From an uncultured Halobacteriales archaeon (GTDB taxonomy: Archaea > Halobacteriota > Halobacteria > Halobacteriales > Hikarchaeaceae), in contig CAZEDI010000001.1 of assembly GCA_964510865.1 (NCBI GenBank), positions 2,297-66,296 of the forward strand: a stretch of 64,000 nucleotides of DNA. The letters run 5' to 3'. Made by a program: the position numbers and the translations under genes. The notes under the pieces were generated by a model that ran no database searches, was not told where the DNA came from, and saw nothing but the letters and a program-made list of their open reading frames with translations. Positions 36,547-57,400 of this stretch are shown piece after piece. Position 1 is the first letter of the stretch. Each line of letters opens with the position of its first letter.

Positions 36547-38325
36547 CTACCGAAGTGCGTTTAACCTGAACTCGAACGCGACGACTGGTACCTCGAGCCC
36601 ATGCTCGACGAGAACCTCGGGATGAATCTCGCCGATAACGCCCACGTGGGCACCGTCGATCACGATATCGGCGACACGTCCATCCAAGAACGTCGGGTGT
36701 TCGGACGCTGGAGTCTCGAGGTCTGCATCGAACCGCCGACAAAGGGCTTGCAAGCGTGCCTTCATATCCTCGTAGGATGCGTCGTGCCGTGCCAGCGCCG
36801 CTGCCACGGTCCGCCACTCGGCGACGTTCGTATTCTCCGTGTGATCCTCACGGGCCACGAGCCCAATCTCCGCAAGATCTTGCGGATAGGCACGATGGGT
36901 ATTGTTCGACAAGACGGTGAGAATCGATGGAAGTGCCCACGTCCTGACGATCTCATACTCCTCGGAGTAGGGTTCGGTGATCCTGACAGGCTTGCCCGTC
37001 CCGACAGTATCACCAGTACCCCAGGGTGGTCGGGTCGGCGTCCCATCATCCGGCGCGAGGCGCATCGTATCGAAGGTCCCGGCTTCGCTGACCAGGTGAA
37101 AGTTCAGCACGTCTTCGAAGCCAAGCCCCACGAGCAGCTCTCGGACCGCTCGCTCGTGGCGCGCGCGTTCGTGTCGACTACCGACGGTCGAGACGTCGGG
37201 ATAGCGCGGGTCCAGTTCGTTGAATCCGAATGCGCGCCCCACATCATCCACGAGGTCGACCGGGTGGAGGACATCTACGCGATATGGGGGAATGCGCACG
37301 TCATATGCGATCTCGTCATCGCCGACCTCCTTCGAGGTTGCATCAAGCCCCGAACGCTCGAAGAGGTCGATTGCGTCCTCTGGGTCGAGGTCAATTCCGA
37401 GGATAGTTTCGATGCTGCGATGGTCGACCGTTTTTTCATCCACGGACAGCTCAGGACGCTGCAGCTCATGGCCCTCGTCCGGGGAAATCGCGTCATCAGC
37501 GTACTGAACCTCGACAGCTTCGACCTGGCCACCACGGGCATCGAGAGCGTAACAGACGATCGTGAGCATCTTGTCGATCGTCCATTGATCGGTACCGGTC
37601 ATCTCGATGAAGAGGTCCCGCGAATCCGTCGAAACTTCGGTCCGGCGACCGTTGATCACTGGCGGGAAGGAGAAGAGCCCGAGGTCGTCATAAATCGCGG
37701 GAAGACGCTCATAGCCGGCCACAATCGGGGCGTACTCATCGCCTATCGGATGGCGTTCGAGAACCTCCCCCGGTGTCATCTCCTCGTCCGAATCGAGTGG
37801 GACGAACGTATCCTCGGAAGGCTCTAGCCCGGTATAGCGGATCGACTTCTCCCGTGCACCCTCCCCTGCACCTGGTGCTCCCTTGAGCATCGTCTGGTCG
37901 TGGACGCCGTTGGCGCCCTTCACCCGTGCTCTCCCCATCGTCGCATGCAGCTTCTCCTGGAGCTGGATCAACGACTCTAAACTCCGCTCGTCGAGGTCGA
38001 GCCCCCTGACAACCGCGCCCGTGACGTATGGACGCTGTGTGGGGACGGATTCGTCGACATATATCGTCCAGTCCGGGTCCGTGACCATGGGACGGTAGAC
38101 GCCTCGGTCGTCACCGTACTGGTAGCGAAGCGAGCGAGCCACTCCCTCGACGGAGAGGCGATCGAGCCTGTCCGGTTCGAACTCGAACTGGAGTTCGCCG
38201 TCCTCCGTGTCACCTTCGAACTCGAGTCCAAGGGCAAAGAGGTCGGACTTCAGCTGATCCTCACTCTTGTCCTCATGACCGATAAGCCGACGGAGTTCGT
38301 CCGGGTCGACGTCGACCGTCGGCAT
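36547..38325 (-). CDS. pheT: Phenylalanyl-tRNA synthetase beta subunit
   Basis: PDRLDRLSVEG.AR, LIQLQEKLH, FPPVIN, D.LHPVDL.DDV, GEIHPEVL. Confidence 0.97.
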   Translation of the reverse strand: MPTVDVDPDELRRLIGHEDKSEDQLKSDLFALGLEFEGDTEDGELQFEFEPDRLDRLSVEGVARSLRYQYGDDRGVYRPMVTDPDWTIYVDESVPTQRPYVTGAVVRGLDLDERSLESLIQLQEKLHATMGRARVKGANGVHDQTMLKGAPGAGEGAREKSIRYTGLEPSEDTFVPLDSDEEMTPGEVLERHPIGDEYAPIVAGYERLPAIYDDLGLFSFPPVINGRRTEVSTDSRDLFIEMTGTDQWTIDKMLTIVCYALDARGGQVEAVEVQYADDAISPDEGHELQRPELSVDEKTVDHRSIETILGIDLDPEDAIDLFERSGLDATSKEVGDDEIAYDVRIPPYRVDVLHPVDLVDDVGRAFGFNELDPRYPDVSTVGSRHERARHERAVRELLVGLGFEDVLNFHLVSEAGTFDTMRLAPDDGTPTRPPWGTGDTVGTGKPVRITEPYSEEYEIVRTWALPSILTVLSNNTHRAYPQDLAEIGLVAREDHTENTNVAEWRTVAAALARHDASYEDMKARLQALCRRFDADLETPASEHPTFLDGRVADIVIDGAHVGVIGEIHPEVLVEHGLEVPVVAFEFRLNALR

Positions 38326-39827
38326 TAGTACGTCACCTCCTCTGTCCGCAAATACTCGAGATCGACGAGCGTGCCATGGACGTCTCGGATGTCTTCTGCT
38401 CCAGTGACGAGCATCATGAGCCGTTCGAGGGCGAGCCCCCAGGCCATCACATCGGCATCGACGTCGAGCGGCTCTAGCATCTCCGGGCGAAAGATCCCCG
38501 AGTTCCCGACTTCGATCAGCTCGTCCGTCTCGGGGTGGGTCCCGAAGAGTTCAAAGCTCGGCTCCGTATAGGGATTATACGTCGGCTTGAACCGCAAGTC
38601 TGTAATGCCGAAGTGTTCGTAAAATTCGGTGAACGTTCCCATCAGATCACGGACTGAGAGGTCGTCAGCCATCACCCACCCTTCGATCTGGAAGAACTCG
38701 AGTAAGTGTGTCGCGTCGATCTCGTCGTTACGATAGGCTTTCTCGACGGAGAAGAATCGCCGAGGTGGCTCCAGCTCGCCGAGCGCCTCACCAGCGAGGT
38801 GGCGGGCAGATAGCGACGTCGTGTGACCCCTGAGATCGATCTGGCGGGCCATCTCTTCGCCCCACGGGGAGTGGTATCCATCGCCGTCAGGACCGACTCC
38901 CTCCCTATGCGCGGATTCGACCCGTTCGACCAGCCCTTCCGGGAGCTCCTGCATCCGGGGAACCTTGAGTGCGAACTGATCCCAGTGTGTCCGTGCAGGA
39001 TGGTCCTGGGGCATGAACAGGCAGTCGTTGATCCAGAATTCCGCGTCCGCGTGTGGACCCTCCATTTCCTCAAAACCCATGCCGACGAGAACGTCTTTCA
39101 CGCGTTCTGCCATCCGCCGGAGTGGATGGGTGCTCCCGCCGTGCATGATTTCGGCGTCCGCGGCGACATTATAGGCAGCGTAGTCTGTCGTGTCCCACGA
39201 GCCACTCGTTAGGGCCTCGGGAGTCACTCGGTCAACTTGCTCGCGAACTTCGATCCCTTCCATGAGTGCCGTCACACCGTCGTCGGTGAGGGTTGCGGAT
39301 CGAGTCGTTTGCTCGGTACGTTCGATAAGCTCGCGTCGCTCAACGTGCTCCAGGACGTCCTCGTCGGCGGGCTCACCGGAACGAACCGCCTCAAGGGCGC
39401 GTGCGTCTGGATCCTCGTCGGGATGTCTCTCTGGATTCGCGGTAATCTCGCCCCGCTCGATCTCCCCATACTCCTTTCGGGCGTAGTTCGCCAGTGCGAT
39501 GTCGACCTGATCACCGTCGAGTCCTGCCTCGTCGATAGCATCACCAAGGGGGACCGGCTCCGACTCCCCACCGAGTTCGAGCGTGGCCCGGTAGAGTCTA
39601 ACCTCGGGAAGCCCGGTTTCGGCGTATTCGGTACCCTCCCCCGTGAGTGAGATATCCAACGCGACCCCTTCTTGGAGTGCGATGAGGCCCGCTTCCTCCA
39701 GCGCGAAGAGTGCACCGGTGACTGTCTCGGGCGGGAGCTCCGTTTCGTCGGCGAGCTGTTCGACTGACATCGATTCGGTCGCGCTGGCCGTCTCGAGTAT
39801 GGCGGCCTGCGCCTGTGGGAGTTGCAT
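38325..39827 (-). CDS. pheS: Phenylalanyl-tRNA synthetase alpha subunit (archaeal)
   Basis: QDHPAR, LRGHTT, YRNDEIDATHL.EF.Q, YNPYTEPS, GNSG.FRPEM, WGLALERL. Confidence 0.97.
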   Translation of the reverse strand: MQLPQAQAAILETASATESMSVEQLADETELPPETVTGALFALEEAGLIALQEGVALDISLTGEGTEYAETGLPEVRLYRATLELGGESEPVPLGDAIDEAGLDGDQVDIALANYARKEYGEIERGEITANPERHPDEDPDARALEAVRSGEPADEDVLEHVERRELIERTEQTTRSATLTDDGVTALMEGIEVREQVDRVTPEALTSGSWDTTDYAAYNVAADAEIMHGGSTHPLRRMAERVKDVLVGMGFEEMEGPHADAEFWINDCLFMPQDHPARTHWDQFALKVPRMQELPEGLVERVESAHREGVGPDGDGYHSPWGEEMARQIDLRGHTTSLSARHLAGEALGELEPPRRFFSVEKAYRNDEIDATHLLEFFQIEGWVMADDLSVRDLMGTFTEFYEHFGITDLRFKPTYNPYTEPSFELFGTHPETDELIEVGNSGIFRPEMLEPLDVDADVMAWGLALERLMMLVTGAEDIRDVHGTLVDLEYLRTEEVTY

Positions 39828-39934: not shown

Positions 39935-40021
39935 TCAGCTGAAAACGAAAAATCCGAATCCCAGAAAACACTCACGATCAGGCCCATCGACACAGCTCGC
40001 ATGGCGGGATTCGGGTGCCAT
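39935..40021 (-). CDS. Putative Phe-rich leader peptide (uORF) of pheST: MAPESRHASCVDGPDRECFLGFGFFVFS
   Basis: Hand-translated. ATG at 40021, TGA at 39937-39935, 5 Phe among the last 10 codons, ends 107 nt before the pheS ATG. Confidence 0.7.
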   Translation of the reverse strand: MAPESRHASCVDGPDRECFLGFGFFVFS

Positions 40022-41557: not shown

Positions 41558-43138
41558 TCAACCCCGTCGTGTCGCCGCTACGTCCAGTTCAATATCGAGG
41601 TTCTCGAGCATCGCAGCCACGTCTTCTCGTTTTCCCTGGTGTTCTGCCAGGAACTCCTCCATCAGTTCTGCAGCTTGCTCCTTACACCCCCCACAGAGGC
41701 GATCACCACCGACACACTCGTCATAGACGCGTGTGGCAAACTCATCGTCGTCGCCTGCGAGCAAGTACGCGTACAACTCATAGACTGGACACTCGTCGGC
41801 CCGCCCACCGAGTTCGCGCTGGAGTTCCGCTGTCTCGCGACCGCCTGTCGTCGCGGCCAGTACCTTGTCATATCCTTCTTCGGGGTCGTCTAGCAAGCTG
41901 ATGTGGCTTGCGGGCACGGACGAGCTCATCTTTCCTCCCGTCAGTCCCGTCATGAATCGGTGATAAATGGACGAGGGCGCGTAGAATCCGTAGCCACCGT
42001 GTGCGACCTCTATTTCGCGGGCTAGCTCTTCGGCGTCGTCCCTGTCGAGGTCAAATGCGTCGACATGGGCTTCATATACCCGTTTTTCACCGTCGACTGA
42101 TTCGATCAACGCGGCAAATGCGTCCTCCGTTGCGTTGCGATCGAGGAAGCGAACGCGGGGACGGAGAGGTTCGTTGCCAGCGGCATCGAGCTTCGTCTCT
42201 ACTGACGACCGCACGGTCGACTCCTCGATGTTCGTTCGGAGCCAGTCTGCCGCTTCCTTACATCGAATCGGGTCCTCTGATTCACCCCGAAGCGTTTCGT
42301 ACGCCTCCGCGAGGAGGGTGCGCTCCGCGGGCTCGACTTCGAAACTCGCGTACGCCTCAGTGACACCGAAGTACCTCGTTCGAGCGGCGAGGTCGCGTGC
42401 CAGACGCATGTGCGGGTCCTGATCTGGTCCGACGGGAATCACCGTCGGCTTCGGCTCTTCGAGCTGGGGATACAGGATATCGGCCATCTGCGTGACGACG
42501 GACTGCATGTGCGCGACGTCCGTCTCGCCGTCAAAACCGTAGATTGCACCCAGCTCCGAGAAGTTTGCCTCGATGCCGAGCTCGAATGCCAGATCCTGCA
42601 CCTCTCTGTTTGTCGACTGACGGTACAGTTCGCCGGCCTCGGGATCGAACCCGAGTGCGAGGAGCGAGAGGAGGTAGTCCGTGGCATGCTGGTCGATCTC
42701 CTCCCAGGTGAGTCCCCGTGCAGCGTGCGCCTCGAGATCGGCGATCAGGCCGTAGGCCTCCGCACCCCGCTCCTGATGCCAGATGAGCTCGTCGAAGACG
42801 AGTTTGTGCCCGATATGGGGGTCGCCTGTGGGCATGAACCCCGATAACGTGGCGACGGGCTCGTCGTTCCGCATCGCATCAAGGACCCGTCTGTAGTCGC
42901 GATGTCCGAAAATGACGCCGCGGCGCATCAGGTAGTGTGGGTCCGGAACCTCGGGGAGGATCTCGTCGAACTCCCCAATGCCGAATTCGGTGAAGAGGTC
43001 CGCGTAGTCCCCAATCGTGGCCGAACCCCATGGATCCAAGACGACGTCGTCGGCACCTGTTGCCGTGCCGCCATCGGATCTAGGTTGCTCGTCGGCGGAT
43101 GCATCCAGTTCGTCCGTTGTATCGTGGTCGTGTGTCAT
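41558..43138 (-). CDS. trpS: Tryptophanyl-tRNA synthetase
   Basis: SGFMPTGDPHIGH (HIGH), VPVG.DQDPH-type motif PVGPDQDPH, GGKMSSS (KMSKS). Start at ATG 43138. Confidence 0.96.
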   Translation of the reverse strand: MTHDHDTTDELDASADEQPRSDGGTATGADDVVLDPWGSATIGDYADLFTEFGIGEFDEILPEVPDPHYLMRRGVIFGHRDYRRVLDAMRNDEPVATLSGFMPTGDPHIGHKLVFDELIWHQERGAEAYGLIADLEAHAARGLTWEEIDQHATDYLLSLLALGFDPEAGELYRQSTNREVQDLAFELGIEANFSELGAIYGFDGETDVAHMQSVVTQMADILYPQLEEPKPTVIPVGPDQDPHMRLARDLAARTRYFGVTEAYASFEVEPAERTLLAEAYETLRGESEDPIRCKEAADWLRTNIEESTVRSSVETKLDAAGNEPLRPRVRFLDRNATEDAFAALIESVDGEKRVYEAHVDAFDLDRDDAEELAREIEVAHGGYGFYAPSSIYHRFMTGLTGGKMSSSVPASHISLLDDPEEGYDKVLAATTGGRETAELQRELGGRADECPVYELYAYLLAGDDDEFATRVYDECVGGDRLCGGCKEQAAELMEEFLAEHQGKREDVAAMLENLDIELDVAATRRG

Positions 43139-43176
43139 TGGTCGTCGTGTCGGGTGCTCGGCAGGCGATTCGATCG

Positions 43177-43210
43177 AAAAAGCGGAGGGAGCATCGCGTT
43201 CCGGCCCCCT
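43177..43210 (-). terminator. Candidate attenuator: 7-bp hairpin plus U5 tract between the Trp uORF and trpS
   Basis: On the - strand, AGGGGGC (43210-43204) pairs with GCTCCCT (43192-43186), followed by CCGC and TTTTT (43181-43177). Confidence 0.45.
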
Positions 43211-43287
43211 TAGATCTGTCCGGCCAGAATCGCGAGACTGTCCACTTCCCGGTTCGCGTGCCAGGGCCAGGTGGAAGTGGACGGCAT
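43210..43287 (-). CDS. Putative Trp leader peptide (uORF) of trpS: MPSTSTWPWHANREVDSLAILAGQI
   Basis: Hand-translated. ATG at 43287, TGG at codons 7 and 9, TAA at 43212-43210, ends 71 nt before the trpS ATG. Confidence 0.65.
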   Translation of the reverse strand: MPSTSTWPWHANREVDSLAILAGQI

Positions 43288-43312
43288 ACCCACCCATATC
43301 GCCAGATGACGC

Positions 43313-43321
43313 TTATATTTT
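43313..43321 (-). promoter_or_regulatory. TATA-like box (AAAATATAA) of the Trp-leader/trpS transcript
   Basis: Lies at -34..-26 from the uORF ATG. Confidence 0.55.
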
Positions 43322-43459
43322 GCCCATTCGGCGGATCGGGGTGAGTGACCCTATATCAACTCCCCGAATATGTCGGTCGTTGAGGGTATCGTGGACGCAA
43401 CCCACAGACGAGATACGCGAAGATGCTGACCGATTGTGACAGGGCCGTCAGCGTGTCGG

Positions 43460-44482
43460 TCAGGGGGTAAGCCGGCCGACAGTGATCCACTCCACGTCAC
43501 CTCCATCACGGACGAGAGCAAACATGGCCTGCTTTCTAACGCCTCCAGCGAGCCTGATGTACAGTGCGAGTTCTCTGGGTTCGAACGCGTACTCGCCGGG
43601 CAATACCCAGACAAGCATTTCGGAGTGTCCGAGCTGGGAGACGGTCGTTATCTCCGCATACGTACGGAAATCCGCACCGAACTTGAACCCTGTTTTCGGG
43701 ACGACTCCCCCTGTCCGGAGTGCTTCGTAGACCGTCAATCGTCGATTGAAGCGCTCACCCTCGACAATTCGCCCGCGCTGGAGCACCTCGTCTCGCCCTT
43801 CGTCAATGGTTAGGACGTCGCGTGCAAGGTAGGCGGCCTCGAGGAGCGAAAGTTGGAGTGCGTCGGCCTCCTCACGACCCTGGAGCGGTTGCCCGTAGAA
43901 CCCTCGATCGTACAGTCCAGGTGGTGGGTCGGGGACGAGCACGCGGTCAGAGAGAAGAATACCCGCTGTCTGCGGGGGACTGAATGTGGTTGTCCCCTCT
44001 GGAGCTCCCCGTCCCGACTCGAAGTAGCTTACCTCACCTTCTTCGTCGACGACGGCGAGTGCGATATCACCGAGATTCCGGGCTGGAAGTGTCGTGCGCT
44101 CGCCGACCACGCGGAGCTGGTGTGCGACCGTTCCATCGGGGGGCGAGGCGCCACGCTCAAAGACGGTATAGTCAGCATTCGGATGCGGATCGGTCACCCA
44201 CCCCGCCCGTGCGGGGGCGAGATAGATCCCTCGAGAGCGGAGGTCCGCGTACGTCAGGAACCGGGCTCCTACACCCTGTTCCTGAATCGATTCGAAGAAC
44301 GCCACGAATCCGTCCCCGTCGACAGCCGTCAGATCTCCCCGAAAGAGCAGGTGGGCGGCCTCGACAGGGGCCAGTGCGATCTCGTTTCCCTCGAGTGGTC
44401 GCCCGTAGCCCCGTGCGTCGTGGAGCCGTTGTCTGGCATCACCTCCGACCACGACCACGTCTCCCCGTCGCTCGCCGTCCAT
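43460..44482 (-). CDS. endA: tRNA-splicing endonuclease (alpha2 type)
   Basis: Duplicated EndA fold, L.LSLLEAAYL, VPKTGFKFGADFRTY, H.E, AGGVRK. Start at ATG 44482. Confidence 0.95.
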   Translation of the reverse strand: MDGERRGDVVVVGGDARQRLHDARGYGRPLEGNEIALAPVEAAHLLFRGDLTAVDGDGFVAFFESIQEQGVGARFLTYADLRSRGIYLAPARAGWVTDPHPNADYTVFERGASPPDGTVAHQLRVVGERTTLPARNLGDIALAVVDEEGEVSYFESGRGAPEGTTTFSPPQTAGILLSDRVLVPDPPPGLYDRGFYGQPLQGREEADALQLSLLEAAYLARDVLTIDEGRDEVLQRGRIVEGERFNRRLTVYEALRTGGVVPKTGFKFGADFRTYAEITTVSQLGHSEMLVWVLPGEYAFEPRELALYIRLAGGVRKQAMFALVRDGGDVEWITVGRLTP

Positions 44483-47788: not shown

Positions 47789-49378
47789 TTATTTCGGCCC
47801 GTTCAACGCGATGTGGGTAACGCTCGTGATTCGCTCGTCGGCGAGGAGGTCGTCCCGGACAGCCTCCGGCACGGGATCGTCGAGGTTGTAGACGGTGAGC
47901 GCTTCGCCACCGATGGTCTCGCGTCCGTTGAACATCCCCGCGATGTTCACGTCGTTTTCACCCAACACGGTGCCCACAAACCCGATGACACCCGGCTCGT
48001 CACGATTTCTCGCGATCAACATGTGACCGTGCGGAACTGCATCCACGCGATACCCGTCGATGCTGACGATCCGCGGATCGTGGTCGGCAAAGAGCGTCCC
48101 ACTGACTGCCAGAGATTCCGTGCCGTCGCTTACTTCGATCGTGACGAGGCTCTGGAAGTCCTCCGACTGTCTCGACTTCGACTCGGTCACGTCAACGCCA
48201 CGTTCCTCGGCGATCCGGGGCGCGTTAACGACGTTCACTTGGACGGACAACGGCGTGAAAATCCCGGTCAACGCACTCGCCGTGACGAGGTCGACTTGCT
48301 CCTCCGCGATATCGCCCGCATACGTCACTTCGACCTCGTCTACATGGCCATCGAAGAGCTGAACCGCAATCTCGCCGGCGGTTTCTGCGATTTCGAGGTA
48401 TGGCTCGATATGTGGGAAGGCGCTCGCATCGACGGAAGGAGCGTTCAACGCGTTGATCACCGGCTCGTCGTGGAACGCTGCCAGCACTTGTTCGGCAGTC
48501 GAGACGGCAACGTTTTCCTGGGCCGCTTCAGTACTTGCTCCCAGGTGCGGCGTGACGATCACGTTCTCCACATCGAGTAATGGATTATCAGGGGAAACGG
48601 GTTCCTCAGAGAAGACGTCGACTGCGGCTCCTTTTAACACCCCATCTTCGACTGCCTCGGCGAGTGCGGTCTCGTCGACAATACCTCCGCGAGCACAATT
48701 AATCACGTAGCCTCCTTCGAGCTGGGCAAGCTCTTCTTCACCGATCATCGCCTCTGTCTCGGGCGTCAGTGGCGTATGGATGGTAATGAAATCCGCTCGA
48801 TCGAGGCACGCGTCCAAGGAATCGACCAGTTCTGCGCCCAACTGCTCGGCTCGTTCCGCTGAAATATATGGGTCGTACGTGACGAGGTCCATCCCGAGAT
48901 TGCCGAGTCGTTTACCGACTTCCTGGCCGACACGACCAAATCCGACGATCCCGAGTGTTTTCCCGTTCACTTCCGTCCCGAGGAACTCACCCTTCGCCCA
49001 CTCCCCGTTGCGGAGACGTTGATGGGCTTGCGGGATCGATCGCGCGGCGGCAAAAGCCATTGCGACTGAATGTTCGGCTGCGGCACGAACGTTCCCTTGC
49101 GGGGCGTTTGCAACAATCACGCCGTGATCCGTCGCCGCCTCCTTATCGATGTTGTCGGTGCCGATCCCTGCTCGCCCCACGATCACGAGGTGGGGTGCCG
49201 CCTCGAATACCTCGCGGGTGACAGCCGTACCTGAGCGGACGATGAGCGCGTTCGCATCCGAAACTGCCTCGAGGAGGGCATCGCCCTCGACCTCGTAGGC
49301 TGTCTCTACCTCGTGGCCTGCCCCCCGGAGAACGTCCAGACCCGCGTCAGCAATCGGATCCGTGACGAGTACCTTCAT
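47789..49378 (-). CDS. serA: D-3-phosphoglycerate dehydrogenase (ASB+ACT type)
   Basis: GRAGIGTDN, GIVGFGRVG, NCARGG, TPHLGAST.EAQ, C-terminal ACT D.PGVIG. Confidence 0.96.
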   Translation of the reverse strand: MKVLVTDPIADAGLDVLRGAGHEVETAYEVEGDALLEAVSDANALIVRSGTAVTREVFEAAPHLVIVGRAGIGTDNIDKEAATDHGVIVANAPQGNVRAAAEHSVAMAFAAARSIPQAHQRLRNGEWAKGEFLGTEVNGKTLGIVGFGRVGQEVGKRLGNLGMDLVTYDPYISAERAEQLGAELVDSLDACLDRADFITIHTPLTPETEAMIGEEELAQLEGGYVINCARGGIVDETALAEAVEDGVLKGAAVDVFSEEPVSPDNPLLDVENVIVTPHLGASTEAAQENVAVSTAEQVLAAFHDEPVINALNAPSVDASAFPHIEPYLEIAETAGEIAVQLFDGHVDEVEVTYAGDIAEEQVDLVTASALTGIFTPLSVQVNVVNAPRIAEERGVDVTESKSRQSEDFQSLVTIEVSDGTESLAVSGTLFADHDPRIVSIDGYRVDAVPHGHMLIARNRDEPGVIGFVGTVLGENDVNIAGMFNGRETIGGEALTVYNLDDPVPEAVRDDLLADERITSVTHIALNGPK

Positions 49379-54411: not shown

Positions 54412-57400
54412 GTGCCTTCCTCTCCGTCCTCTGTCCCGGCCCCGTGATCTGAACTCCCTGTCCCATCGCCGCTGATCGAGCCATCCACGTCCGCCGCTGG
54501 GATTTCCCTACCGGAACCGTCGGGATCGACGTATCGGGTCCACAGGGCCAACAGGCTCGGAAGGACGAGTACGCTTGCCAGGAACGCGTAGATGATGGTG
54601 ATCCCCGTAATGAGGCCGAACTGTTGGAGCGGTGGCAAGATAGCGAAGACGAGGACGCCAAATCCGCCGACCGTTGTCGCCGCACTCCCGAGTAGTGCGC
54701 CCCCTGTGCCGGTCACCGTGGTATGCATCGCATCCCAACTCGACTCGTGGCGACTAAGCTCTTGGTTATACCGCTCGGAGATGTGAATCCCGTAGGCGAC
54801 ACCGAGTCCGACGGTGAGGCTCGTGATCGTCCCTGTGAGAACGTTGAACGGGATACCGAGTGCGTACATCGTCCCGAGGATCCACGCGACCGTCAGCGCA
54901 ACGGGGACGAGGGTGACGATCCCGAGTGTTCCACTCCCGTGTGTGATTCGATACGCCACCGTAAGAAACAGAAAGATGGCGATGAGCGTGATGAGGAGGC
55001 TTTCGATCACCGTTTCGAGGAGCTGATTCTGGACGACTTCGTTGAGGATCGCCCGCCCCGTTGCAGTCGCATCGAGGCCATCCCCGTCGAGCGAGTCGGC
55101 CACGTCGTCCATTTGTGTCGTGATAGCCTCGCCTGCAGCGCCACCTTTCACTGAGATCACGAGTCGAAGTGCGAGGTACTCGCCGCCCTGGGATCGGTGA
55201 ATGACGCTCTGGGCTTGCTCGGGTGCGACTGCGAACAGGGCGTCGTAGACACGGGCTATGTCTTGGTCGGGGATCCGATCGCCATCCCTATCAGAATTTT
55301 CCAACGTTACGTTGAAACTCTCGTTTTCCCTCGCGACCCGTCGCATCGTTCGGATCGGCCCAGTGATCGCGGGTTCGCCGTTTGACAGTCGGTGGGTGAC
55401 GTTCTTCTCCCCCGCGAGCGTTCCTGCAGTCGCTATCCGCTGGAGTGTCTCGGCATCCGTGACATTCCCCTCCACAAGTATCTGGGCTTTGGCGTCTTCG
55501 CGGACGAAATTGTCGTTGACGTAATCGAGGTCGTTTTTCGCGGTGTACTCGCCGGGTTTGAACGGTTCCGGAAGCTCAGTCATCCACTCTGGGGGTTGCT
55601 CTGCCAGGAAGTCCTCCTGTGCGAAACTGGTGTCAACCTGCATCCCCCCATACGCGCCCCCAGCCGTTACGACTAGTGTGACGAAGAGTACGACATACGG
55701 AGCCGTCCGGGCGAGATCGGCGCCAACACCGAGTACGCTACTGAATCGTCCCCCGCCGGTCCCGAATGCCTCCGCGCGTCTGTCGAGACCCACTCGCTCG
55801 AGCACGTCGTCGAGTTCGACTTTTACGGCGGGGACTAGTACCCCGAAGACCAGCAGCGCTGATACAATTCCGACCGCACTGACCACACCGAACTCCCTGA
55901 TCGGCGGAACCGGACTCGTGAGGTTAGAGAGAAACCCGATGACTGTCGTTGCCGTCACCCAGAGCAAGGCAATCCCGACGCCTGCCAGCGCAACTCTCAT
56001 TGCGCTCCCCGAACGTCCACCTTCGGTAGTACGTTCCTCCCGGTGTCGCATGAAGATGTGGATGGCGTAGTCGATGGAGAGCCCGATCAGGAGGACGGGC
56101 ACGGCGACGAAGAGCTGGTTGAAGGCGATGTCTGCCCATCCCATGAACCCGAACGTCCAGACGAGGACGAGGCCGATACCAACGACCCCCACTACGATAT
56201 CGAAGGGATCCCGATACGCGATCGCGAGTGCGACGAGGACGAAAAGGAGCGCGAGTGGTCCGACAATCGCGAGGCTATCGGACATCGAGGTGTCTATCTC
56301 GTGCGTAATCACGCCACCGCCGAACACGAGATAGGAAAGACCGGTTGCCCGTTCCTGGCCAATCTCGCGCATTGTGAGCTGCGAATCGACGATTCGCTGA
56401 CTCGATGCCCCCTGCACTGCAGTCCCTTGATCGGTCCGTTGGGTGGCGACGAGCATCGTCGCCGATGCCGTCGGTGATCTAGGCTGATAGCCAGTGGGCA
56501 TAAACGCGAACACCCGCTGGTCGCCGCCACCGTCCTCGGAAAGTACCCGTTCGATTATCCTCTCAACCGCCGAGTCGTTCATCGATTCGAGTTGGTCCAG
56601 CTTTTCTGCGTGACTCGGCGTACTCGCGTTTTGCAGATCGGATTGGAGCTGTTGGACCGTCGCTGCGAGTTCTTGGAGATCCGTAGCGCGTTCCTCCAGT
56701 TGATCCGCCCGCTCTTGGAGCGATGTGTACTCCTCTCGGAGGACTCCTCGCGTACCGAGCTGATACGCGTGCTCGAGTTCCTCGGAACTCTCTGCGGCTC
56801 GGATTGCTTCCGCTGCCTCGCGAAACGTCTCCTGTTGTACGTCACTGAGATCGATCGTCGTATTCCCCCGGACCGCTTCGAACGTAGAGGTGATATTCTC
56901 GTTTGGGTTCTGTCGGAGATAATCGAGTGCCCGCCGGAGAGCCGCCGCTGTGTCGTTTATGTTTGCTCTACGGTCGCGGAAGTCTCTCTGATCCGCTTCC
57001 AGTGCAGTTCGTCGCTGTTGGAGTGTCTCAGCGCGTGTTTGGAGCTCGCCCGCGGTCTCCTCGATGAGTGCTGTCGTCGCGATCACGTCCGCAATTCCCA
57101 CGACCGGATCCCCACTGGTCAGCGTGTCATTGATCGACCCATTCGCTCGGAGTGCCTGCTCGAACTCCATAATCCGAAGGAGCGACTCCCGGGAAAGCAC
57201 GTTTGTTCCGTCACCTCGAACGATGATCTGGGCCGTCGTCGTGTTCCTGTCCCCACTCGAGAAATTCGTCCGGATATAGTCCAATTTCGCCGAAACGTCC
57301 GAGTCCGTCTGGAACTGATCGAGCGAGGAGGCCTGCTCGACCTGTGGAGCACCTGCTCCAACCGCCAGCGTGAGGAGTACCATGGCGACGATCGCGAACT

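What the first reader, a model, noticed from the sequence alone, without database searches (positions are those of the whole stretch)
43177..43282. Mutually exclusive hairpins and a U5 tract in the trpS leader resemble a 1:2 / 2:3 / 3:4 attenuator
Seen (- strand): GTCCACTTCC (43282-43273) pairs perfectly over 10 bp with GGAAGTGGAC (43249-43240), putting both Trp codons in the loop. TCGCG-A-TTCTGGCC (43235-43222) pairs with GGCCGGAA-CGCGA (43206-43194) over 13 bp, with the stop codon in the loop. That stem overlaps and excludes AGGGGGC/GCTCCCT (43210-43204 / 43192-43186), which is followed by TTTTT (43181-43177). Inference: stalling at W7/W9 frees the 13-bp stem as an antiterminator, while completing the peptide favours termination near the U-tract.
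Basis: partly seen in the sequence, partly recalled or inferred. Interest (0 to 1): 0.72.

Follow-up and report, generated by a model that had tools for sequence, protein, structure and literature searches.

The report
Trp-codon leader switch before archaeal trpS

Summary
Alone they are not beyond chance: the fold z-score is -0.98, and perfect 10-bp inverted repeats are as frequent in shuffled sequence.

Comparison makes the element real. A covariance model finds it upstream of a TrpRS gene in 38 haloarchaeal loci, in front of both the long and the short TrpRS paralogue, including Haloferax volcanii HVO_A0127. There its 23-aa uORF was already listed from dRNA-seq in 2016 but was not interpreted.

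Conserved parts:
- a TATA-like box about 30 nt before a probably leaderless 13-28-codon ORF with W-x-W(-x-W)
- helix A:B, with compensatory changes
- a strong hairpin C:D, usually with the leader stop codon in its apical loop
- segment E, which contains a T-stretch followed by C, the haloarchaeal terminator motif

A:B and the 13-bp stem do not compete, and its "3:4" hairpin is not conserved. The real alternative is B pairing with A or with E.

Best model: a ribosome stalled at the Trp codons masks A, B then sequesters E, and transcription reads into trpS. The direction and the termination step are inferred, not shown.

A Phe-rich leader precedes pheST in the same window.

The parts
43312..43321 (-). 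TATA-like box (AAAATATAAG; TATAA lies at -30..-26 from the leader ATG). This is the putative promoter of a leaderless or near-leaderless leader transcript.
   Evidence: Sequence. An A/T-rich hexamer starts 29-34 nt upstream of the leader start codon in 22 of the 25 members with upstream sequence. This matches the haloarchaeal promoter geometry and the leaderless norm reported for Hfx. volcanii (PMC4983044). The transcription start site itself is inferred, not shown.
43210..43287 (-). Leader ORF: ATG 43287 to TAA 43212-43210, 25 codons, MPSTSTWPWHANREVDSLAILAGQI.
   Evidence: In 24 of 24 members that have an ATG, the last ATG before the Trp cluster is in frame with it. The ATG-to-Trp spacing takes the values 18, 21, 24, 27 and 30 nt, always a multiple of 3. 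The Hfx. volcanii homologue is the 23-aa uORF listed by Babski 2016.
43273..43282 (-). Segment A (GTCCACTTCC), the 5' arm of helix A:B. It lies at codons 2-5 of the leader.
   Evidence: A:B is paired in 91% of cells, with AU21<->GC10 and UA19<->CG9 double changes.
43261..43269 (-). Regulatory Trp codons: TGG 43269-43267 (W7) and TGG 43263-43261 (W9), in the loop of A:B.
   Evidence: W-x-W(-x-W) occurs in 24 of the first 26 members and a single W in 2. The last W codon lies 7-16 nt (mostly 10 or 13) before B.
43240..43250 (-). Segment B (GGGAAGTGGAC), the shared switch segment. It pairs either with A or with E.
   Evidence: B column 59 is U or C. It covaries strictly with A (A or G) and stays paired to an almost invariant G in E (UG20, CG10, UA1).
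43194..43239 (-). Hairpin C:D with its closing AGU:GCU pairs: AGT 43239-37, C arm 43235-43222, loop carrying the leader stop codon, D arm 43206-43194. The GCT partner lies at 43192-43190.
   Evidence: C:D is -21.6 kcal/mol; every one of 32 members has a hairpin here (-22 to -44 kcal/mol), and in 26 of 32 the stop codon is in the unpaired apical loop; the outer CGC:GCG pairs are nearly invariant.
43176..43192 (-). Segment E (GCTCCCTCCGCTTTTT) plus C 43176. Its 3' part TCCGCTTTTT pairs with B, and TTTTTC is a T5C terminator-type motif.
   Evidence: B:E is paired in 90% of cells against 39-55% when slid. T4-6 in 14 of 32 members and TTTCTY in 11 of 32. PMC7237163: T5C gave 95% termination in Hfx. 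volcanii, and intergenic termination sites are a T-stretch ending at C.
41558..43138 (-). trpS, the long haloarchaeal TrpRS (526 aa, starting MTHDHD...). This is the regulated gene.
   Evidence: NF008928, 982 bits against a cut-off of 891. M1 is invariant in the 28-sequence alignment; best relatives are 76-79% identical Halobacteriales TrpRS. No TATA-like box lies between E and the ATG.

Best explanation
This is a cis-acting, ribosome-sensed leader (an attenuator-like switch) that couples trpS expression to the supply of charged tRNA-Trp.

Proposed sequence of events:
1. Transcription starts about 27 nt after a TATA-like box, at or next to the AUG of a 25-codon leader ORF.
2. Segment A (codons 2-5) and segment B form a 10-bp helix that holds the two Trp codons in its loop. 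Because A and B are transcribed first, and A:B is stronger than B:E, A:B is the default state.
3. Downstream lies a strong hairpin C:D with the leader stop codon in its apical loop, then segment E, a pyrimidine-rich stretch ending in T5C.
4. If Trp-tRNA is plentiful, the ribosome runs to the stop codon inside C:D. A:B re-forms behind it and E stays single-stranded. E then acts as an archaeal terminator signal: a T-stretch, probably recognised as RNA by the termination factor aCPSF1/FttA. Most transcripts would end about 112 nt from the start, near 43176.
5. If Trp-tRNA is scarce, the ribosome stalls on W7/W9. It covers A and ends just short of B. B then extends the C:D hairpin by pairing with E, the U-tract is sequestered, and RNA polymerase reads on into trpS.

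Shown:
- the conserved ORF, the helices and their covariation
- the exclusive association with TrpRS genes
- the lack of a proximal promoter

Inferred:
- translation of the ORF
- termination at E
- involvement of aCPSF1/FttA
- the direction (starvation turns trpS ON)
For: Family and association:
- 38 members were found by pattern and by covariance model R1. They are the window; 14 of 80 species-representative trpS loci (34-133 bits, next best 22 bits); 11 metagenome loci; 6 of the 8 nearest TrpRS relatives, none used to train the model (47-100 bits); and 6 of 7 plasmid-borne short TrpRS paralogues, including Hfx. volcanii HVO_A0127.
- Every member is directly upstream of a TrpRS gene, of two different paralogue families: NF008928 and NF008927.
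- The window holds only one copy.

Coding signature:
- The ATG is in frame with the Trp codons in 24 of 24 members that have an ATG.
- All five spacing classes are multiples of 3.
- A TATA-like box starts 29-34 nt upstream of the start codon in 22 of the 25 members with upstream sequence.
- In two members (L033, L024) segment A lies after the Trp codons rather than before them, yet would still be covered by a ribosome stalled there.
- The stop codon is in the apical loop of C:D in 26 of 32 members.

RNA switch:
- A:B is paired in 91.4% of cells with four doubly changed pairs; 0 of 500 shuffles reach this.
- B:E is paired in 90.0% of cells against 39-55% when slid; 0 of 500 shuffles reach this. 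Doubly changed pairs include GC->AU in L033/L024.
- RNAalifold independently returns B:E plus AGU:GCU plus CGC:GCG.
- Free RNAs split about evenly between A:B and B:E as the minimum-energy fold. Masking up to +12 nt from the last Trp codon gives B:E in 25 of 26.
- In the window A:B is -16.4 kcal/mol, while B:E adds about -9.

Dependence on read-through:
- 55 of 65 leader-less trpS loci have a canonical CGAA-N-TTTTTG promoter motif close to the gene, against 1 of 14 leader loci.
- In Hfx. volcanii, dRNA-seq gave a 150-250-nt 5'UTR with this exact 23-aa uORF (MW 2743, pI 5.4) and no second transcription start site at the main ORF.

Terminator context from the literature:
- T5C terminates at 95% in Hfx. 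volcanii (PMC7237163).
- aCPSF1 binds U-tract RNA through its KH domains (PMC8716108).
- FttA needs U-rich single-stranded RNA 30-36 nt behind the 3' end (PMC11616081). This leaves time for B:E to form.

Logic of the direction:
- Only 'stall turns trpS ON' gives stable feedback for an essential or back-up synthetase.
- In Natrinema zhouii and Hfx. volcanii the leader sits on the auxiliary TrpRS, while the main trpS has an ordinary promoter.

Parallel case:
- A Phe-rich leaderless uORF precedes pheST in the same window and in at least 35 of 45 loci.
Against: - There is no transcript, termination-site or ribosome-footprint data for this organism.
- The held Term-seq tables for Hfx. volcanii list no 3' end near the homologous site on pHV4. 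One file was truncated when stored and expression may be low, so this is weak evidence.
- The T-stretch is not universal. 7 of 32 members have only interrupted pyrimidine runs, and the Hfx. volcanii version reads CTTCTTC.
- Support for B:E is mostly wobble-compatible changes on one side. Doubly changed cells are few, and L211 changes B without compensation in E.
- If termination at the T-stretch is purely intrinsic, E is still inside the polymerase when the decision is made, so B:E could not act. The model therefore needs factor-dependent or delayed termination.
- The same structures are compatible with the opposite polarity.
- The window's fold is not more stable than shuffles.
- Four members (L009, L066, L213, L214) start with GTG, which is inefficient on leaderless mRNAs.
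Confidence: 0.6

Rival explanations
1. Same element, opposite polarity. B freed by a stalled ribosome extends C:D into a long hairpin that abuts the U-tract and acts as a bacterial-style terminator. A:B, or a ribosome sitting at the stop codon inside the C:D loop, prevents that hairpin. Translation of the leader would then permit read-through, and Trp starvation would shut trpS off.
For: - The extended helix (GUGGA.AGU + C:D + GCU..UCCGC) ends immediately before the U run. In L033 it is flanked by AAAA/UUUU like a classical intrinsic terminator.
- The stop codon lies in the apical loop of C:D in 26 of 32 members. A terminating ribosome would melt this hairpin.
- A hairpin alone gave 59% termination in Hfx. 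volcanii (PMC7237163).
Against: - This would be positive feedback on an aminoacyl-tRNA synthetase: less TrpRS gives more stalling, which gives still less TrpRS. It is also senseless for an auxiliary TrpRS.
- Archaeal T-stretch terminators do not need a hairpin, and T5C alone terminates at 95%. The E-free state should therefore terminate, not read through.
- All known synthetase leaders (pheST, Streptomyces trpS, T-boxes) switch ON when the amino acid is scarce (PMC1262725).
Confidence: 0.08
2. The ribosome-controlled A:B / B:E switch is real, but its output is post-transcriptional. Free E would be a cleavage or decay entry site, or would affect initiation at the trpS AUG 31-45 nt downstream. 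Transcription termination would not be involved.
For: - No 3' end is listed at the homologous site in the Hfx. volcanii Term-seq tables.
- 7 of 32 members lack a real T-stretch.
- The distance from E to the start codon is short and fairly constant: 31-36 nt in the short-paralogue group and 39 nt in the window.
Against: - E carries the haloarchaeal terminator signature (a T-stretch ending in C) in 25 of 32 members.
- No Shine-Dalgarno-like or start-codon-complementary sequence was seen in B or E.
- The start codon lies well outside either helix.
Confidence: 0.12
3. The leader is not translated. The UGG repeats and helices would form an RNA sensor bound directly by tRNA-Trp (T-box-like: UGG matches both the CCA anticodon and the 3' CCA end) or by a Trp-activated RNA-binding protein that recognises spaced triplets (TRAP-like).
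For: - UGG-NNN-UGG(-NNN-UGG) is a spaced triplet repeat displayed in a hairpin loop in most members.
- The sequences encoding 'STS' and 'EVDSLA' are conserved as RNA rather than as peptide: members with an early stop keep them untranslated.
Against: - A start codon sits at a fixed distance from the TATA box and is always in frame with the UGGs. All indels between them are multiples of 3.
- In L033 and L024 the UGGs lie outside the A:B loop but are still placed so that a ribosome on them covers A.
- No T-box or other Rfam family matches, even at E<=10.
- The parallel pheS leader uses Phe codons in the same arrangement.
- Hfx. volcanii mRNAs are mostly leaderless, so a 5'-terminal AUG is the normal initiation signal.
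Confidence: 0.07
4. The 10-bp stem is 1:2, the 13-bp stem is an antiterminator 2:3, and AGGGGGC/GCTCCCT plus U5 is a bacterial-type 3:4 terminator.
For: All three pairings exist in the window. The last two overlap by 3 nt, and the last is 4 nt from the U run.
Against: - The 10-bp and 13-bp stems share no base, so a stall cannot switch between them.
- The 3:4 hairpin is paired in only 56% of cells, has no covariation and is no better than slid controls.
- It is -10.1 kcal/mol against -21.6 for the stem it must beat. Its 5' arm would also be covered by a ribosome at the stop codon.
Confidence: 0.03
5. There is no regulatory switch. The conserved block would be an independent small gene or sRNA with its own terminator, or E would be a remnant or working TATA element of a proximal trpS promoter. 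The Trp codons would be incidental.
For: - The T-stretch of E lies 31-45 nt before the TrpRS start. In leader-less loci the canonical promoter T-stretch lies about 33-36 nt before it.
- L066 has both the leader and a proximal promoter motif.
- Babski 2016 raised the stand-alone small-gene option for such uORFs.
Against: - The element is linked only to TrpRS genes of two paralogue families, in different genomic neighbourhoods.
- Beyond the RNA-constrained parts, only the Trp codons of the peptide are conserved, and its length varies from 13 to 28 aa.
- E has no purine-rich BRE, and in most members it reads TTTCTC.
- No second transcription start site is seen at HVO_A0127.
- Covariation shows selection on RNA pairing.
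Confidence: 0.05

Closest known systems
E. coli trp operon attenuator (trpL leader peptide, segments 1-4)
   Same: - A short leader ORF with neighbouring Trp codons.
- A stalled ribosome masks the first segment, so the second segment pairs with a downstream partner instead.
- A U-run lies just before the regulated gene.
   Different: - The host is an archaeon with a Pol II-like polymerase.
- The leader mRNA is probably leaderless.
- There are five segments, not four: A:B, an independent hairpin C:D, and E.
- The switch segment pairs with the U-tract region itself. It does not form an antiterminator that competes with a terminator hairpin.
- No conserved hairpin-plus-U terminator is present.
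- The regulated gene is a synthetase, not a biosynthetic operon.
E. coli pheST attenuator (pheM leader) and the predicted Streptomyces trpS / leuS attenuators (PMC1262725)
   Same: An aminoacyl-tRNA synthetase gene is controlled by a leader peptide rich in codons for the cognate amino acid. The Streptomyces case is also a TrpRS gene, a second copy (trpS2), like the plasmid-borne short TrpRS genes here.
   Different: Those are bacterial, use Rho-independent terminator hairpins, and share no sequence or structure with this element. The archaeal leaders form their own family (covariance model R1; nothing in Rfam).
Leaderless polycysteine uORF attenuators of mycobacteria (bioRxiv 10.1101/834739)
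   Same: The sensing ORF starts at the 5' end of a leaderless transcript, is rich in one amino acid's codons and controls downstream genes in cis.
   Different: It is bacterial, senses Cys rather than Trp, and regulates different genes. Its output mechanism is not tied to a conserved A/B/E switch.
E. coli tnaC-tnaA (factor-dependent attenuation) and riboswitch control of Rho access
   Same: Read-through is proposed to depend on whether a termination factor can reach an unstructured stretch of nascent RNA after the leader ORF.
   Different: Here the factor would be aCPSF1/FttA, the site is U/C-rich, and it would be hidden by RNA pairing rather than by the stalled ribosome itself. None of this has been tested.
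T-box leaders of Firmicute trpS
   Same: They have the same regulatory goal: to induce TrpRS when charged tRNA-Trp is low.
   Different: T-boxes bind tRNA directly and have no ORF. There is no T-box match, and the ORF signature argues for sensing by the ribosome.
[quoted passage not shown] 2016 (PMC4983044)
   Same: Entry 12 is a member of this family: 23 aa, MW 2743, pI 5.4, identical to MESTSYVNCWRWHASREVDSISV upstream of HVO_A0127. Entry 13 (26 aa, pheS) fits the size of the Phe-rich leader family.
   Different: The paper only lists them as uORFs or possible small proteins. The section read does not mention cognate codons, RNA structures or attenuation.

Membership tests
Classical ribosome-mediated (leader-peptide) transcription attenuator | A short translated leader ORF on the same transcript, upstream of the regulated gene | tested here: inconclusive
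   The ORF is conserved in all 38 members. The ATG is in frame in 24 of 24 members that have one, all spacings are multiples of 3, and the TATA box lies at a fixed distance. A shared transcript is shown for Hfx. volcanii by transcription-start mapping. Translation itself was not observed.
Classical ribosome-mediated (leader-peptide) transcription attenuator | A cluster of codons for the cognate amino acid in the leader | tested here: met
   W-x-W(-x-W) occurs in 24 of the first 26 members, and at least one W in all. The element is found only before TrpRS genes.
Classical ribosome-mediated (leader-peptide) transcription attenuator | Mutually exclusive RNA helices that share one segment, positioned so that a ribosome stalled at the regulatory codons selects between them | tested here: met
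   A:B competes with B:E. A:B shows covariation and B:E is 90% paired. Masking the ribosome footprint gives B:E in 25 of 26. The distance from the last W codon to B is 7-16 nt.
Classical ribosome-mediated (leader-peptide) transcription attenuator | A conserved GC-rich terminator hairpin immediately followed by a U-run (3:4) | tested here: not met
The conserved hairpin C:D, with its closing AGU:GCU pairs, ends 8 nt before the T-stretch (12 nt from the D arm alone). A T-stretch followed by C is present instead.
Classical ribosome-mediated (leader-peptide) transcription attenuator | Premature termination that responds to charged tRNA | not testable with these tools
   This needs Northern blots, Term-seq or reporter assays with and without Trp.
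Haloarchaeal T-stretch terminator (aCPSF1/FttA-assisted) | A run of T ending at C in an intergenic position, exposed as single-stranded U-rich RNA | tested here: inconclusive
   The window has T5C, the motif that gave 95% termination in Hfx. volcanii. T4-6 occurs in 14 of 32 members, TTTCTY in 11 of 32, and weaker runs in 7 of 32. Function was not tested, and no 3' end is listed at the Hfx. volcanii homologue.
T-box riboswitch | Stem I specifier loop plus the conserved T-box sequence (Rfam RF00230) | tested here: not met
   A permissive Rfam scan (E<=10) of 42500-44000 returned only two chance hits, Pab19 and P10, both far below their gathering scores.
Any curated RNA family (Rfam 15) | A match at or near the family's gathering score | tested here: not met
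   the best hits were 17.8 and 14 bits, against cut-offs of 55 and 37.

The most novel reading that the evidence does not exclude
Haloarchaea would use true ribosome-mediated attenuation. Leaderless mini-ORFs rich in cognate codons (Trp before trpS, Phe before pheST) would read the charging level of a tRNA. Through a three-way RNA switch they would hide or expose a U-rich terminator signal from the archaeal termination machinery (aCPSF1/FttA). This would be the first leader-peptide attenuator class in Archaea and direct evidence that transcription-translation coupling is used for gene regulation there.
Probability: 0.5. Interest if true: 0.9.

Novelty: new variant of a known kind. Interest (0 to 1): 0.82.

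Why it matters
Leader-peptide attenuation is a textbook bacterial mechanism. I found no report of it in Archaea in ten full-text searches, and the element matches no Rfam family.

Archaea couple transcription and translation but use a eukaryote-like polymerase and a CPSF73-type termination factor. Whether that coupling is exploited for regulation is an open question.

This element makes the question testable:
- It exists in the genetically tractable Hfx. volcanii (HVO_A0127), where its uORF and long 5'UTR are already mapped.
- It has clear mutational targets: the UGG codons, the AUG, and segments A, B and E.
- Its logic differs from the bacterial design, because the switch segment pairs with the terminator's U-tract itself.

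The parallel Phe-codon leader before pheST suggests a wider class covering several synthetase genes.

It also corrects annotation. Gene callers merge the leader into trpS: the database call for this window is 579 aa instead of 526 aa.

Tried and rejected
- **Rfam scan at E<=10:** only chance hits.
- **Fold z-score of the window leader:** not significant. The count of 10-bp inverted repeats against shuffles is not enriched either. The window alone therefore proves nothing.
not conserved.
- **Inner part of C:D scored by alignment columns:** poorly paired because loop lengths differ. I replaced this with per-sequence folding.
- **Metagenome pattern GGACAGTNTCG...GCTCNCTYCG:** too loose. 
- **Covariance-model search for further copies:** none in the window, and none among the other 66 trpS loci.
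- **E as a promoter or TATA element:** rejected as the main reading (no BRE, TTTCTC in most members, no second start site in Hfx. volcanii), but kept as a possible evolutionary origin.
- **A termination site at the Hfx. volcanii homologue:** none in the held Term-seq supplement text.
- **The exact transcription start coordinate and Ribo-seq evidence:** the supplements are not held.
- **tRNA genes in the window:** none.
- **Halobaculum and Haladaptatus plasmid TrpRS genes:** no leader.
Full report
**1. What is in the window**

- The ORF runs from ATG 43287 to TAA 43212-43210 and encodes MPSTSTWPWHANREVDSLAILAGQI.
- GTCCACTTCC (43282-43273, segment A here) pairs perfectly with GGAAGTGGAC (43249-43240, segment B). 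Both TGG codons are in the loop.
- TCGCGATTCTGGCC (C) pairs with GGCCGGAACGCGA (D), with the stop codon in the loop.
- TTTTT (43181-43177) is followed by C.

Taken alone this is not remarkable. The MFE z-score is -0.98. Perfect 10-bp inverted repeats are as common in shuffled sequence: 3 observed against 3.5 +/- 1.9. The first two stems share no nucleotide and coexist in the predicted fold, so they are not a 1:2 / 2:3 pair.

**2. Context**

- The window is from an uncultured member of the Halobacteriales. It is 59.7% G+C, and the best TrpRS relatives are 76-79% identical.
- The downstream gene is the long haloarchaeal TrpRS (NF008928, 982 bits). Its true start is ATG 43138, since M1 is invariant among 28 homologues.
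- The database gene call of 579 aa starts at ATG 43297 and swallows the leader.
- Upstream lies endA, the tRNA splicing endonuclease. Further upstream are a protein with a NucS-N domain and zinc ribbons, and a Ski2-like helicase.
- In Hfx. volcanii, endA and trpS1 overlap by 4 nt and the trpS1 promoters lie inside endA (PMC7714728). In the window they are separated by about 320 nt, and that gap holds the element.

**3. A family**

Members were collected from five sources.
- *Species-representative genomes.* Among 80 trpS loci, a small upstream ORF with W-x-W plus the DNA motifs GGACAGTNTCG and TGCTCNCTYCGYTTT appeared in 14.
- *Metagenomes.* A pattern scan added 11 true cases among many chance hits. 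All are followed by a TrpRS gene: in 9 the conserved DPWG motif of the long TrpRS was found downstream, L088's contig ends after the first codons of the gene, and L149's is the short paralogue NF008927.
- *Covariance model.* Model R1, built from 26 sequences, recovers exactly these members. There is a clear gap between 34 bits or more and 22 bits or less, no further hits in the other 66 loci, and one hit in the window.
- *Nearest TrpRS relatives.* R1 finds the element in 6 of 8, none of them used to train the model (47-100 bits). The two without it have overlapping endA and trpS.
- *Plasmid-borne short TrpRS genes.* R1 finds it upstream of 6 of 7. These are Hfx. volcanii HVO_A0127, Hfx. mediterranei, Hfx. 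larsenii, Natronorubrum aibiense, Natrinema zhouii and Haloprofundus.

The total is 38 members, always directly before a TrpRS gene.

**4. The ORF looks translated**

- An A/T-rich hexamer starts 29-34 nt before the start codon in 22 of the 25 members with upstream sequence. This is the geometry of leaderless haloarchaeal mRNAs (PMC4983044).
- In 24 of 24 members with an ATG, the last ATG before the Trp cluster is in frame with it. The spacing is 18, 21, 24, 27 or 30 nt.
- Peptides are 13-28 aa long.
- Apart from the Trp codons, the conserved 'STS' and 'EVDSLA' are the translations of segments A and B. Members whose ORF stops right after WRWR (L009, L066, L024) keep these sequences untranslated.
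- In L033 and L024 segment A lies just after the Trp codons instead of before them. It would still be inside the footprint of a ribosome stalled there.
- The stop codon lies in the unpaired apical loop of hairpin C:D in 26 of 32 members.

**5. The RNA switch**

- *A:B.* 91.4% of cells are paired. Doubly changed pairs include AU21<->GC10 and UA19<->CG9. No shuffle out of 500 reaches the observed values, and slid controls give 30-48%.
- *C:D.* Every member folds a hairpin of -22 to -44 kcal/mol, closed by nearly invariant CGC:GCG and AGU:GCU pairs.
- *B:E.* B is instead complementary to E (TCCGCTTTTT in the window). 90.0% of cells are paired against 39-55% when slid, and 0 of 500 shuffles reach this. 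Pair 59-127 reads UG20, CG10, UA1 with none unpaired. Doubly changed pairs include GC->AU in L033/L024 and AU->GC in L149.
- *Dual constraint on B.* Column 59 of B covaries strictly with A, while an almost invariant G in E tolerates both states. This is the pattern expected for a segment with two partners.
- *Independent prediction.* RNAalifold returns B:E plus AGU:GCU plus CGC:GCG as the consensus.
- *Energetics.* In the window A:B is worth -16.4 kcal/mol, C:D -21.6, and B:E adds about -9. Across the family the free RNA folds into A:B in about half of the members and B:E in the rest. Masking up to 12 nt past the last Trp codon gives B:E in 25 of 26.
- *Spacing.* The last Trp codon lies 7-16 nt (mostly 10 or 13) before B. 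A ribosome stalled there would cover A and stop at the edge of B.

**6. Promoter and terminator context**

- 55 of 65 leader-less trpS loci carry a canonical CGAA-N(2-4)-TTTT(T)G promoter-like motif close to the gene, often inside the 3' end of endA. Only 1 of 14 leader loci does.
- In the window no TATA-like box lies between E and the trpS ATG. trpS therefore appears to depend on read-through from the leader promoter.
- For Hfx. volcanii this is supported experimentally. Babski et al. list a 23-aa uORF (MW 2743, pI 5.4) in a 150-250-nt 5'UTR of A0127 'tryptophan--tRNA ligase', with no second transcription start site. The peptide I read upstream of HVO_A0127, MESTSYVNCWRWHASREVDSISV, has exactly those values.
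- E ends in a T-stretch followed by C: T4-6 in 14 of 32 members, TTTCTY in 11 of 32, weaker runs in 7 of 32.
- In Hfx. volcanii, intergenic termination sites are T-stretches ending at C, and T5C alone terminated 95% of transcripts (PMC7237163).

**7. Mechanism**

Shown: a conserved leader ORF with Trp codons, and a segment B that can pair with A or with the terminator-bearing E.

Inferred:
- When Trp-tRNA is plentiful, the ribosome runs to the stop codon in the C:D loop, A:B re-forms and E stays single-stranded. Transcription then ends near 43176, giving an RNA of about 112 nt.
- When the ribosome stalls on W7/W9, A is covered and B extends C:D by pairing with E. The U-tract is hidden and polymerase continues into trpS.

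There is a timing objection. If termination were purely intrinsic, E would still be inside the polymerase when the decision is made. Archaeal termination in vivo relies largely on aCPSF1/FttA. Its KH domains bind the U-tract as RNA (PMC8716108), and its site spans up to 36 nt behind the 3' end, with U-rich RNA at -30 to -36 (PMC11616081). That places the polymerase about at the trpS start codon when the decision falls, which leaves time for B:E to form.

The direction (starvation turns trpS ON) rests on three arguments:
- feedback logic, since the opposite would be a vicious circle for a synthetase
- the element's presence on auxiliary TrpRS genes in species whose main trpS has an ordinary promoter (Natrinema zhouii L026 against L213, and Hfx. 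volcanii)
- the expectation that an exposed T5C terminates by default

**8. Rivals**

- *Opposite polarity*, with the extended hairpin acting as the terminator. It fits the structures and the stop-in-loop feature but fails on regulatory logic.
- *A post-transcriptional output.* This cannot be excluded. The held Hfx. volcanii Term-seq tables show no 3' end at the homologous site, and some members lack a real T-stretch.
- *A non-translated tRNA or protein sensor.* This is disfavoured by the frame and indel signature, by the L033/L024 architecture and by the lack of any T-box match.
- *E as a promoter remnant.* This may be its evolutionary origin, but it has no BRE and there is no second start site in Hfx. 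volcanii.

**9. Comparison with what is known**

The element works like the leader-peptide attenuators of E. coli trp and pheST, and like the predicted Streptomyces trpS attenuators (PMC1262725). In having a leaderless sensing ORF it also resembles the mycobacterial Cys uORFs.

It is not a member of those families. It shares no sequence or structure with them, it has no conserved hairpin-plus-U terminator, and the polymerase and termination machinery are different.

No Rfam family matches. None of ten full-text searches found a description of leader-peptide attenuation in Archaea. The only prior trace I found is the uninterpreted uORF listing of 2016.

**10. A second leader in the same window**

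A simple scan for leaderless mini-ORFs with a TATA-like box, clustered rare residues and a T-stretch returned ten candidates. Among them were the trpS leader and an ORF at 40021-39935 on the - strand.
- It encodes MAPESRHASCVDGPDRECFLGFGFFVFS, with five Phe in its last ten residues.
- TTTTTATT lies at -30..-23 from its ATG.
- It sits 107 nt upstream of pheS (38325-39827) and pheT.
- A uORF of the form MA[SP]E[PS]H...GFGFFFA precedes pheS in at least 35 of 45 loci across many genera.
- Its codons 3-5 are complementary to the G-F-G codons, with covarying GAACCC/GGGTTC and GAATCC/GGATTC.
- Babski's entry 13 (26 aa, pheS) fits by size.

Two synthetase genes, each preceded by a leader rich in its own amino acid's codons, strengthen the ribosome-sensing reading.

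**11. Limits**

- Everything about translation, termination, the factor involved and the polarity is inference from sequence.
- The covariation counts are not corrected for phylogeny.
- No expression data exist for the window's organism.

Noticed in passing
window 39935-40021 (- strand), upstream of pheS 38325-39827 and pheT 36547-38325: A Phe-rich, probably leaderless mini-ORF, MAPESRHASCVDGPDRECFLGFGFFVFS. TTTTTATT lies at 40051-40044, and the Phe codons themselves create T-stretches. A conserved uORF of the form MA[SP]E[PS]H..GFGFFFA precedes pheS in at least 35 of 45 haloarchaeal loci. Its 5' codons are complementary to the G-F-G codons, and a conserved GGCGGTGGAC...GACGAAACCGCC block follows. 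It is probably the 26-aa pheS uORF of Babski 2016, Table 2, entry 13. It looks like an archaeal counterpart of the pheM leader.
   Followed up: partly
window 43138-43297 (- strand): The database gene call for trpS (P0001, 579 aa) starts at ATG 43297 and reads through the whole leader in the trpS frame. Homologues start at MT(R/H)D, which is ATG 43138 (526 aa). Several other long calls among the hits (for example 580-590 aa) may be the same artefact.
   Followed up: partly
L002-L080 (trpS loci without the leader), 30-240 nt upstream of the TrpRS match: A strongly conserved promoter-like motif (G)AAGCGAA-N-TTTTTGCGC occurs in 55 of 65 loci. It is often embedded in the last codons of endA (VRKRMVFAL), which fits the trpS1 promoters mapped inside endA in Hfx. 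volcanii. It is almost mutually exclusive with the leader (1 of 14). Its T-stretch sits at about the same distance from the ATG as segment E, and B-C (GGAAGCGGACAGTCTCGCG) resembles it. The leader may have evolved around the old promoter.
   Followed up: partly
L066:2756-2885 and about 40 nt before its trpS: One member has both the leader, with a degenerate E that lacks a T-stretch, and a canonical proximal promoter motif. It may be an element in decay.
   Followed up: no
L026 (chromosome) and L213 (plasmid) of Natrinema zhouii; Hfx. volcanii HVO_2951 and HVO_A0127: Within a single species the main long trpS has an ordinary promoter, while the plasmid-borne short TrpRS carries the Trp leader. 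This parallels the attenuator predicted upstream of trpS2, a second TrpRS gene, in Streptomyces avermitilis.
   Followed up: partly
window 43214-43218 (- strand, in the C:D loop, CAGATCTAA): AGATC, the weak coding-region termination motif reported for Hfx. volcanii, overlaps the leader stop codon. It is not conserved in the family and is probably coincidence.
   Followed up: no
window 48284-48340 and 56294-56334: These are the two other perfect 10-bp inverted repeats with short loops in the window. I did not examine them.
   Followed up: no
L033 and L024, 100-300 nt downstream of the leader: In Candidatus Chewarchaeum and a related MAG the leader lies about 260 nt from trpS. The spacer holds a conserved CAAGGTTAACGACCG..., which could be a second promoter or a further RNA element.
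   Followed up: no
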